From: Escherichia coli
GTDB taxonomy: Bacteria > Pseudomonadota > Gammaproteobacteria > Enterobacterales > Enterobacteriaceae
Assembly (NCBI RefSeq): GCF_045037415.1
Contig: NZ_CP173438.1
DNA: 64,000 nucleotides
Direction: 5' to 3' (one strand)
Part shown: positions 58,094-58,899 of the stretch, piece after piece
How positions within the stretch are numbered: the first letter of the stretch is position 1
How the letters are laid out: each line of letters starts with the position of its first letter
Position numbers and translations under genes: made by a program
Notes under the pieces: generated by a model
The model's input: the letters and a program-made list of their open reading frames with translations, nothing else
What the model was told of the DNA's origin: nothing
Databases searched by the model: none

Positions 58094-58444
58094 TTATTCC
58101 ACCACCGCCTGCAAGCGTAATAACGCCTCTTCCACCACCTCATCCGCAGCCAGACCAATACGCTTTGCCAGCCGGGCGCGTAGATCCATCATCCGCACCT
58201 GATTCACCAGCACCACGCCGTGCACATCGCCTTCTTCGCAATGTAAAGGAACGCTAAATCCGGCATAACGGGCAAAATTTCCGCCCTGCGTAATGGGGGC
58301 CACCAGCGTCATTCCCAGTTGATTAAAGGCTTGAACGGAGAGCACAAGCGCAGGTCGACCAGCACCTTGCTGTTCATGGCCGCTTGCTGGATCAAAGCCA
58401 ACCAGCACAATGTCTCCCCGTTCAAATTCACTTTTCTTTACCAT
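58094..58444 (-). CDS. chpB: Toxin ChpB (MazF-family endoribonuclease)
   Basis: 116 aa, MVKKSEFERGDIVLVGFDPASGHEQ..., MazF/PemK fold. Confidence 0.85.
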   Translation of the reverse strand: MVKKSEFERGDIVLVGFDPASGHEQQGAGRPALVLSVQAFNQLGMTLVAPITQGGNFARYAGFSVPLHCEEGDVHGVVLVNQVRMMDLRARLAKRIGLAADEVVEEALLRLQAVVE

Positions 58445-58668
58445 ATTTCGTCACCCGCAGGGGTGGATTTACCCCAGACATCCTGCTCGCTAAGTTCCGC
58501 GGCGTTCATGTCACACTGTGCCAGCAGTTCATCAAGCGAGTAGCGCCTGGAGATGGGTGTCAGAATCAGTTGATTGTTGCTCACTTGCGCCTCCACGCTC
58601 TGCCCCGGCTGTAAGTTAAGTTCTTTCATTACGATATTGGGAATGACCATACCTGCACTGTTCCCCAT
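58438..58668 (-). CDS. chpS: Antitoxin ChpS, with apparent frameshift removing the canonical N-terminal 7 residues
   Basis: 76-aa ORF MGNSAGMVIPNIVMKELNLQ...; the SD-proximal ATG at 58688 reads MRITIKRWG then shifts frame at a C4 run (58663-58666) and stops after 19 codons. Confidence 0.7.
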   Translation of the reverse strand: MGNSAGMVIPNIVMKELNLQPGQSVEAQVSNNQLILTPISRRYSLDELLAQCDMNAAELSEQDVWGKSTPAGDEIW

Positions 58669-58899
58669 CTTTTTATGGTAATACGCATCTGCACCTCCTT
58701 AAGTTATACAAAGTATAACTCACGGTGCTACAGGAAACGTTTTACCCCTGCGCATTTGTGAACGCCAGCAGAGTTTTTTATGCGTTAACAGATATGGAAA
58801 GCGGCTCGGAGAGAAAAGCAAAGGGTGAGGGAATTACAAAACAGAATGCGAGTCGTCTCGCAAAAAACAACGCCACCCGAAGGTGGCGTATGCATATGG

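What the first reader, a model, noticed from the sequence alone, without database searches (positions are those of the whole stretch)
58438..58690. chpS antitoxin: 1-nt deletion in a homopolymer run truncates the N-terminus
The ATG at 58688 with a good AGGAGG site reads MRITIKRWG, the canonical ChpS N-terminus as I recall it, but a C4 run at 58663-58666 (plus strand) puts the rest out of frame and a stop follows after 19 codons. The long ORF restarts at an internal ATG (58668) 20 nt downstream, far from the RBS, and lacks the first seven residues. Those residues belong to the N-terminal beta-strand of the MazE-type DNA-binding dimer, so antitoxin level or function could be altered while chpB is intact. 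It may equally be a homopolymer sequencing error.
Basis: partly seen in the sequence, partly recalled or inferred. Interest (0 to 1): 0.45.

Follow-up and report, generated by a model that had tools for sequence, protein, structure and literature searches.

The report
One-base gap in chpS antitoxin gene
The antitoxin gene chpS of an ordinary E. coli toxin-antitoxin pair is one G short in a five-G run, which breaks its reading frame, but this is more likely a long-read sequencing error than a real mutation and is of low interest either way.

Summary
On the minus strand, AGGAGG (58699-58694) precedes ATG 58688. That frame reads MRITIKRWG, then meets a G4 run (58666-58663) where K-12 and ST131 references have G5, and stops after 19 codons. 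The rest of ChpS lies in the -1 frame (76-aa ORF from ATG 58668). chpB is intact.

The exact G4 allele occurs in 1 of 3,097 complete RefSeq E. coli genomes that carry chpSB. There, PGAP already marks chpS "frameshifted".

That genome is not the window's source. Its six private differences from an ST131 reference in about 111 kb are all one-base deletions or substitutions at homopolymer boundaries, the pattern of long-read consensus error. Error-riddled assemblies drop a base at this G5 run or at the adjacent A5 run.

The window differs from ST131 strain 81009 by only two small changes in 61.8 kb: this deletion and a private G-to-A inside a GATC site.

I rate a consensus error at about 0.6 and a real, recent, private frameshift at about 0.33. 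If real, ATG 58668 has no ribosome-binding site. Rescue would more plausibly come from reinitiation at the TAATG stop-start overlap (58631-58627) or from -1 slippage. chpB translation would fall too. Only reads can decide.

The parts
58438..58688 (-). chpS (chpBI) antitoxin coding region, 251 nt instead of 252. It is interrupted by a 1-nt shorter G run.
   Evidence: It is identical to K-12 chpS except for the missing G. The same allele is annotated 'frameshifted' in NZ_CM142692.1.
58694..58699 (-). Shine-Dalgarno AGGAGG, 5 nt upstream of ATG 58688.
   Evidence: The duplex with the anti-SD is -13.4 kcal/mol.
58663..58666 (-). G4 run (C4 on the plus strand). It is G5 in K-12, in ST131 references and in all but one of 3,097 complete genomes with the locus.
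58670..58674 (-). Adjacent A5 run. It is intact here but shortened to A4 in some error-riddled assemblies. It is a possible -1 slip site (A_AAA_A).
58629..58688 (-). Short ORF actually read from the strong start: MRITIKRWGTVQVWSFPIS plus TAA.
58438..58668 (-). 76-aa ORF in the original chpS frame (M + ChpS residues 9-83). Its ATG has no SD.
   Evidence: NF008463 scores 174.1 bits on profile positions 9-83. The anti-SD duplex is +0.3 kcal/mol.
58627..58631 (-). TAATG: the stop of the short ORF overlaps an in-frame chpS ATG (Met21 of ChpS). This is a candidate termination-reinitiation site that would give a 63-aa product.
   Evidence: Read directly. Function is inferred, not shown.
58094..58444 (-). 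chpB (chpBK) MazF/PemK-family endoribonuclease toxin, intact. Its ATG overlaps the chpS stop (ATGGTAA) and has only a weak SD.
   Evidence: NF007320 scores 228.9 bits. It is 115/116 identical to K-12 (H89R). The SD duplex is -3.8 kcal/mol.
58689..58733 (-). Inverted repeat just upstream of and overlapping the SD. Its core is AGTTATAC-TTT-GTATAACT at 58720-58702. It is a candidate ChpS operator.
   Evidence: (I1). The operator role is inferred by analogy with MazE palindromes (PMC4333400).

Best explanation
The locus is the ordinary chromosomal chpS-chpB (chpBI-chpBK) type II toxin-antitoxin module of an ST131-like E. coli, in its usual place between ytfP and ppa. The missing G in the G5 run is most likely a consensus error of a long-read assembly, not a property of the strain. 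On this reading the true gene encodes the normal 83-aa ChpS. By analogy with MazE, its N-terminal swapped-hairpin domain dimerises and binds the palindrome upstream of the operon. Its C-terminal tail neutralises the ChpB endoribonuclease, whose translation is coupled to chpS through the ATGGTAA overlap. Shown: the 1-nt difference, its rarity, and the error-type signature of the comparison assemblies. Inferred: that the window's assembly shares that error source.
For: 1. The window differs from ST131 strain 81009 over 61.8 kb by only two small changes. One is this homopolymer deletion. The other is a G-to-A inside a GATC Dam site that no other genome shares (0 of 1,532). GATC sites cover about 2% of bases. 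Homopolymer lengths and methylation motifs are the main residual nanopore consensus errors (PMC6591954). One indel per SNP is also far above a normal mutational ratio; that ratio is from my own knowledge.

2. The only complete RefSeq genome with the same allele is NZ_CM142692.1. Against 81009, over about 111 kb, it has three 1-nt deletions: chpS G5 to G4, ytfJ T5 to T4, and GAAAAAGAAG to GAAAAAAAG. It also has three substitutions at homopolymer boundaries. It has no private substitution away from a homopolymer boundary. So its G4 is probably an error too.

3. Clearly error-riddled assemblies (11-41 gap openings, 13-41 gapped positions, per 6.2 kb) drop a base at this G5 run (L013, L016) or at the adjacent A5 run (L007, L012, L015).

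4. chpS is among the genes that could not be deleted in the Keio collection, attributed to ChpB (PMC5992433). A real knock-out with an untouched chpB is therefore disfavoured.

5. The allele is sporadic. It is seen at 1 of 3,097 genomes, in unrelated backgrounds, and is never fixed in a clade.
Against: - Apart from these two changes the window is flawless over 61.8 kb. That stretch includes 19 A/T runs of 7-8 and 7 G/C runs of 6, so this is not a noisy assembly.
- The same allele is present in another ST131-like blood isolate, which could mean inheritance in a subclone.
- It also occurs in two otherwise clean, mutually 1.1% divergent assemblies, L008 and L014, each with intact chpB. The allele may therefore exist and be viable.
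- Real indels also favour homopolymers.
- I have no reads and do not know the sequencing platform.
Confidence: 0.6

Rival explanations
1. The deletion is real: a recent slipped-strand mutation in the G5 run, private to the strain or to a small subclone. Ribosomes from the strong SD make a 19-aa peptide and stop 185 nt before chpB. Full-length ChpS is lost. chpB has only a weak SD and depends on coupling to chpS, so its translation falls as well, which would keep the cell viable. Residual antitoxin could come from three routes. The first is reinitiation at the TAATG overlap, giving a 63-aa ChpS that lacks residues 1-20; it would keep the C-terminal toxin-binding tail but would not bind DNA. The second is -1 slippage of tRNA-Gly on G_GGA, which regenerates exactly wild-type ChpS. 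The third is -1 slippage of tRNA-Lys on A_AAA_A, giving full-length ChpS with R7K/W8M. Autorepression would be weakened. The net effect is a decaying or attenuated toxin-antitoxin module.
For: - The sequence as given has G4.
- The rest of the window shows no other indel.
- The allele recurs in NZ_CM142692.1, L008 and L014, with chpB intact in all.
- The chpB SD is weak (-3.8 against -13.4 kcal/mol) and the genes overlap.
- The TAATG overlap and both slip products were verified by translation.
- ChpB is only a partial inhibitor of protein synthesis (PMC7781912, citing Zhang 2005).
- In MazE the toxin-binding part is the C-terminal tail, while residues K7, R8 and W9 contact DNA (PMC4333400; alignment).
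Against: - The error-type signature of the only other complete-genome carrier.
- The second private difference of the window lies in a Dam site.
- The site loses a base in noisy assemblies.
- chpS could not be deleted in the Keio collection (PMC5992433).
- There is no compensating change in chpB: it is the common WP_000239579.1 allele.
- None of the rescue routes has been tested.
Confidence: 0.33
2. The G run is a functional switch. The options are phase variation between G5 and G4 that turns the antitoxin and autoregulation off and on in subpopulations, or programmed -1 recoding as the normal way this strain makes ChpS.
For: The G4 allele recurs in at least three unrelated backgrounds. Two slippery runs (A5, G4) lie just before the stop, and a -1 shift at either one restores the frame.
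Against: - A run of five is much shorter than known contingency tracts; this is from my own knowledge.
- 3,096 of 3,097 genomes lack the exact G4 allele.
- No stimulatory element was identified, and I did not look for one systematically.
- Recurrence is equally explained by sequencing error at this site.
Confidence: 0.03

Closest known systems
E. coli K-12 chpS-chpB (chpBI-chpBK) type II toxin-antitoxin module
   Same: It has the same position between ytfP and ppa, the same SD and upstream palindrome, and the same 7-nt gene overlap. chpS DNA is identical apart from one G. ChpB is 115/116 identical.
   Different: The G run is 4 rather than 5, so the 83-codon frame is broken after codon 9. ChpB carries H89R, the common non-K-12 allele.
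chpS pseudogene ACYTU1_RS05435 in E. coli UID2309220015 (NZ_CM142692.1), annotated 'frameshifted' by PGAP
   Same: The allele is identical and the 361-nt context is identical. The background is ST131-like.
   Different: It is a different genome. It lacks the window's IS110-family insertion and the 14394 SNP. It has three private substitutions in lptG, nrdD and pmbA, and further private 1-nt deletions nearby.
MazE-MazF (chpA locus) and the AbrB/MazE/SpoVT swapped-hairpin antitoxins (PF04014; PDB 1MVF, 1UB4, 2MRN/2MRU)
   Same: ChpS residues 5-49 match PF04014. ChpS 4-83 aligns with MazE 5-82, including the KRWGNS motif. In MazE, K7, R8, W9 and N11 contact DNA and the C-terminal tail binds the toxin (PMC4333400).
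   Different: It is a paralogue, not MazE: the MazE equivalog model scores 35 bits against a cut-off of 113. ChpS has Val where MazE has the key Arg16. No ChpS structure or operator study was found here.
Homopolymer-length errors in long-read consensus assemblies
   Same: The change is a single-base deletion in a 5-base run. The same run and its neighbour are shortened in visibly noisy assemblies. Homopolymers and methylation motifs dominate nanopore consensus errors (PMC6591954).
   Different: The rest of the window has no other indel, even in longer runs. The platform is unknown.

Membership tests
chpS-chpB type II toxin-antitoxin module | The antitoxin sequence matches the ChpS equivalog model above its cut-off. 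| tested here: met
   NF008463 (cut-off 101 bits) scores 196.5 bits for the frame-restored 83 aa, 174.1 for the 76-aa ORF and 142.6 for the 63-aa product.
chpS-chpB type II toxin-antitoxin module | An uninterrupted antitoxin reading frame runs from the SD-served start codon. | tested here: not met
   The frame from ATG 58688 stops after 19 codons. PGAP calls the identical allele a frameshifted pseudogene.
chpS-chpB type II toxin-antitoxin module | An intact MazF/PemK-family toxin gene lies immediately downstream and overlaps the antitoxin gene. | tested here: met
   chpB 58444..58094 scores 228.9 bits on NF007320 over 1-116/116. It overlaps chpS by 7 nt. PF02452 is found on the homologous genes.
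chpS-chpB type II toxin-antitoxin module | Chromosomal position between ytfP and ppa, as in K-12. | tested here: met
   Annotated neighbours in the K-12 and ST131 records aligned to the window.
chpS-chpB type II toxin-antitoxin module | The antitoxin neutralises the toxin and represses its own promoter. | not testable with these tools
   This needs growth, rescue and reporter assays. Here there is only homology to MazE (PMC4333400).
AbrB/MazE/SpoVT DNA-binding domain (PF04014) | A complete swapped-hairpin domain including the first beta-strand and the KRWGNS turn. | tested here: not met
   PF04014 covers residues 5-49 of the restored protein. In the window, residues 1-9 and residues 9-83 are in different frames, so no single product carries the whole domain.
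Long-read homopolymer consensus error | A single-base length change in a homopolymer relative to near-identical genomes. | tested here: met
   G5 to G4 is the only indel against strain 81009 in 61.8 kb.
Long-read homopolymer consensus error | The other private differences of the assembly also lie in error-prone contexts. | tested here: inconclusive
   The single other difference is in a GATC site and is unique among 1,532 genomes. One event is too few. The pattern is clear only for the comparison genome NZ_CM142692.1.
Long-read homopolymer consensus error | Reads or an orthogonal platform show the reference length. | not testable with these tools
   No reads are available and the source assembly could not be identified.

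The most novel reading that the evidence does not exclude
The frameshift is real and tolerated. A clinical ST131-like strain would then live with an intact ChpB toxin while making only an N-terminally truncated ChpS, by reinitiation at the TAATG overlap, or trace wild-type ChpS, by -1 slippage at G_GGA or A_AAA_A. That would be a natural separation of toxin neutralisation from DNA binding and autoregulation. Recurrence of the allele in at least three lineages would point to a mutational hot spot that repeatedly attenuates this module.
Probability: 0.12. Interest if true: 0.4.

Novelty: already known. Interest (0 to 1): 0.1.

Why it matters
As an artefact, it matters only as a caution. Single-base homopolymer errors in long-read assemblies create false pseudogenes, here in a gene listed as essential in K-12, and can distort surveys of toxin-antitoxin content. 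A real mutation would be a small natural experiment. It would show that loss of the ChpS DNA-binding N-terminus, and of most ChpS translation, is survivable with chpB intact, probably because chpB expression is coupled to chpS. That would bear on how chromosomal toxin-antitoxin modules decay. Neither outcome changes the understanding of the system.

Tried and rejected
1. I looked for the 76-aa product as a called gene in public assemblies and found none. Gene callers choose the 70-aa Met14 start instead. That product is on 196 contigs, but it mixes G4 alleles, A4 alleles and old annotations of intact genes. The count therefore cannot be read as allele frequency.

2. I tried to identify the window's source genome in three ways. 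The chimeric ISEc23 ORF is not unique: the same IS110-in-IS66 composite is widespread. Two ORFs spanning the private SNP at 14394 are not on record. The source is not among the 5,426 complete RefSeq genomes.

3. I first took the shared allele in NZ_CM142692.1 as evidence for inheritance. I rejected that as weak once its other private differences proved to be all homopolymer-type. One such hit among 3,097 genomes is about what random long-read error would give.

4. I considered ATG 58668 as the functional restart and rejected it, because it has no SD and lies inside the translated short ORF.

5. I considered a compensatory change in chpB. There is none; H89R is the common allele.

6. I considered phase variation and rejected it, because the run is too short and the allele too rare.

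7. I did not run a metagenome scan for the G4 allele. The expected yield was near zero and a null result would be uninformative.

8. I did not run structure prediction. Homology to MazE was enough for the N-terminal strand claim.

Full report
**What is in the sequence**

On the minus strand of window 58094-58733 lies the chpS-chpB operon. AGGAGG at 58699-58694 sits 5 nt before ATG 58688. Its predicted pairing with the 16S anti-SD is -13.4 kcal/mol. From that ATG the frame reads MRITIKRWGTVQVWSFPIS and stops at TAA 58631-58629.

The G run at 58666-58663 (C4 on the plus strand) has four bases. In an alignment of 361/362 nt with K-12 MG1655, the one missing G is the only difference. The remainder of ChpS lies in the -1 frame, as a 76-aa ORF from ATG 58668 to TAA 58440-58438. 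That ORF is ChpS residues 9-83 with Met replacing Trp8.

chpB (58444-58094) is complete. It matches the ChpB equivalog NF007320 over 1-116/116 at 228.9 bits. It differs from K-12 ChpB only by H89R, which is the allele of the ST131 references. Restoring the G gives the 83-aa protein that matches NF008463 over 1-83/83 at 196.5 bits.

**How unusual the allele is**

A 71-nt query centred on the run finds the locus in 3,097 of 5,426 complete RefSeq E. coli genomes. Exactly one of them has the G4 allele: NZ_CM142692.1, strain UID2309220015, a blood isolate from Bangkok. PGAP annotates chpS there as a pseudogene, "frameshifted".

The window is not that record. It carries a 1.43-kb IS110-family insertion at about 759-2187 and an A at 14394 that the record lacks. 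The record has three substitutions, in lptG, nrdD and pmbA, that the window lacks.

**Real mutation or artefact**

Against ST131 strain 81009, window 2204-64000 (61.8 kb) shows only two differences: the chpS deletion and a G-to-A at 14394. The latter lies inside a GATC site in an IS66-remnant pseudogene region, and none of the 1,532 genomes with that segment share it. GATC sites make up about 2% of the bases. Homopolymer lengths and methylation motifs are the main residual errors of nanopore consensus sequences (PMC6591954). So both private differences of the window sit in error-prone contexts. One indel per substitution is also far from a normal mutational ratio; that ratio is from my own knowledge.

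The only other complete-genome carrier gives no independent support. Over about 111 kb compared with 81009 it has three one-base deletions: chpS G5 to G4, ytfJ T5 to T4 (also annotated frameshifted), and an intergenic GAAAAAGAAG to GAAAAAAAG. It also has three substitutions at homopolymer boundaries. It has no private substitution away from a homopolymer boundary. That is a long-read error signature.

With such assemblies in the collection, one G4 hit among 3,097 genomes is about what random error would give. This is my estimate, based on about 4 runs of five or more bases per kb.

The 70-aa product that gene callers make from a broken chpS is on 196 contigs. I read ten such places. Five clearly noisy assemblies, with 11-41 gap openings (13-41 gapped positions) per 6.2 kb, have lost a base in this G5 run or in the adjacent A5 run. 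A sixth, the noisiest (62 gap openings), is garbled across the run. Two of the ten are intact genes annotated from Met14.

Several points count against the artefact reading. The window has no other indel, even in 19 A/T runs of 7-8 and 7 G/C runs of 6. Two otherwise clean assemblies, 1.1% divergent from each other (L008, an NCTC strain, and L014), also carry G4 with an intact chpB.

Weighing these, I put a consensus error at about 0.6, a real recent frameshift at about 0.33, and anything more exotic at a few percent. Reads are the only decisive evidence.

**What a real frameshift would do**

ChpS residues 5-49 are a PF04014 AbrB/MazE domain. ChpS 4-83 aligns with MazE 5-82 of PDB 1MVF and 1UB4, so ChpS K6, R7, W8 and N10 correspond to MazE K7, R8, W9 and N11.

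In MazE, residues 1-50 form the swapped-hairpin dimer. W9, N11 and R16 are the key DNA contacts, K7 and R8 bind the backbone, and the disordered C-terminal tail binds MazF (PMC4333400). Any product lacking residues 1-8 should lose DNA binding and probably the fold, while keeping the toxin-binding tail.

ATG 58668 is an unlikely start. It has no SD (+0.3 kcal/mol) and lies inside the translated short ORF. Three other routes can be read from the sequence, none of them tested.

- The short ORF's stop overlaps an in-frame chpS ATG (TAATG, 58631-58627). That is a classic arrangement for termination-reinitiation and would give a 63-aa ChpS lacking residues 1-20.
- A -1 slip of tRNA-Gly on G_GGA regenerates exactly wild-type ChpS.
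- A -1 slip on A_AAA_A gives full-length ChpS with R7K/W8M.

chpB has only a weak SD (-3.8 kcal/mol), and its ATG overlaps the chpS stop. A frameshift that ends translation 185 nt upstream should therefore lower toxin synthesis as well (inference). ChpB is a partial inhibitor of translation (PMC7781912). Together these could explain tolerance.

Against that, chpS is among the 303 genes that could not be deleted in the Keio collection, attributed to ChpB (PMC5992433). The palindrome AGTTATAC-TTT-GTATAACT (58720-58702, within inverted repeat I1) is a plausible operator. It would be derepressed without the N-terminal domain (inference).

**Comparison with what is known, and verdict**

This is the known chpSB module in its known place between ytfP and ppa. 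The allele is already annotated as a frameshifted pseudogene in one RefSeq genome. It fails one defining feature of a functional module, an uninterrupted antitoxin frame, so as written it is a pseudogene call. Most likely that call reflects an assembly error.

Novelty is nil and interest is low. The most novel reading not excluded is a real, tolerated frameshift rescued by reinitiation or slippage that recurs in several lineages. I give it about 0.12.

Noticed in passing
window 759-2187 (transposase ORF 818-1951 +); chimeric ORF 2061-3629 (-): An IS110-family element (377-aa transposase, NF033542 at 278.9 bits) is inserted inside the ISEc23 (IS66-family) transposase gene. It is absent at this place from NZ_CM142692.1 and from ST131 strain 81009. 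The identical composite occurs on many other contigs (89 index blocks), which suggests site-specific targeting of this IS66 sequence.
   Followed up: partly
window 14394: A where all 1,532 other genomes with this segment have G. The change destroys a GATC site in an IS66-remnant pseudogene region. It is the window's only substitution against ST131 strain 81009 in 61.8 kb.
   Followed up: yes
window 30082-31678 (-): A 'DNA-binding protein, frameshifted' pseudogene between argF and tabA. It is shared with NZ_CM142692.1 and strain 81009, so it is a lineage-wide pseudogene and not a private error.
   Followed up: partly
window 22800-23100: Direct repeats of about 98 nt (90-94% identical) in the holC-pepA intergenic region, seen as offset self-matches in BLAST.
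   Followed up: no
L027 (NZ_CM142692.1 1129853 and 1133051), outside the window: The one complete genome sharing the chpS allele has two more private 1-nt deletions within 13 kb of chpS: ytfJ T5 to T4, annotated frameshifted, and an intergenic G lost from GAAAAAGAAG. It also has an IS1 insertion in a TetR-family gene.
   Followed up: yes
window 58094-58444 (-), codon 89: ChpB carries Arg89 where K-12 has His89. Arg89 is the allele of the ST131 references and of L008, L010 and L014. By my own recalled alignment, not tested here, it matches the Arg at the corresponding MazF position.
   Followed up: partly
L008 (UGDP01000002.1) and L014 (JBOCHN010000001.1), locus positions about 2960-3000: Two otherwise clean assemblies from backgrounds about 1.3-1.5% divergent from the window, and 1.1% divergent from each other, carry the same chpS G4 allele with intact chpB.
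   Followed up: partly
window about 1-15830: A degraded island next to tRNA-Leu (window about 15745-15829, mapped from the annotation of NZ_CM142692.1). It holds an integrase fragment, several IS remnants and a sugar-acid utilisation cluster, and is shared with the ST131 references.
   Followed up: no
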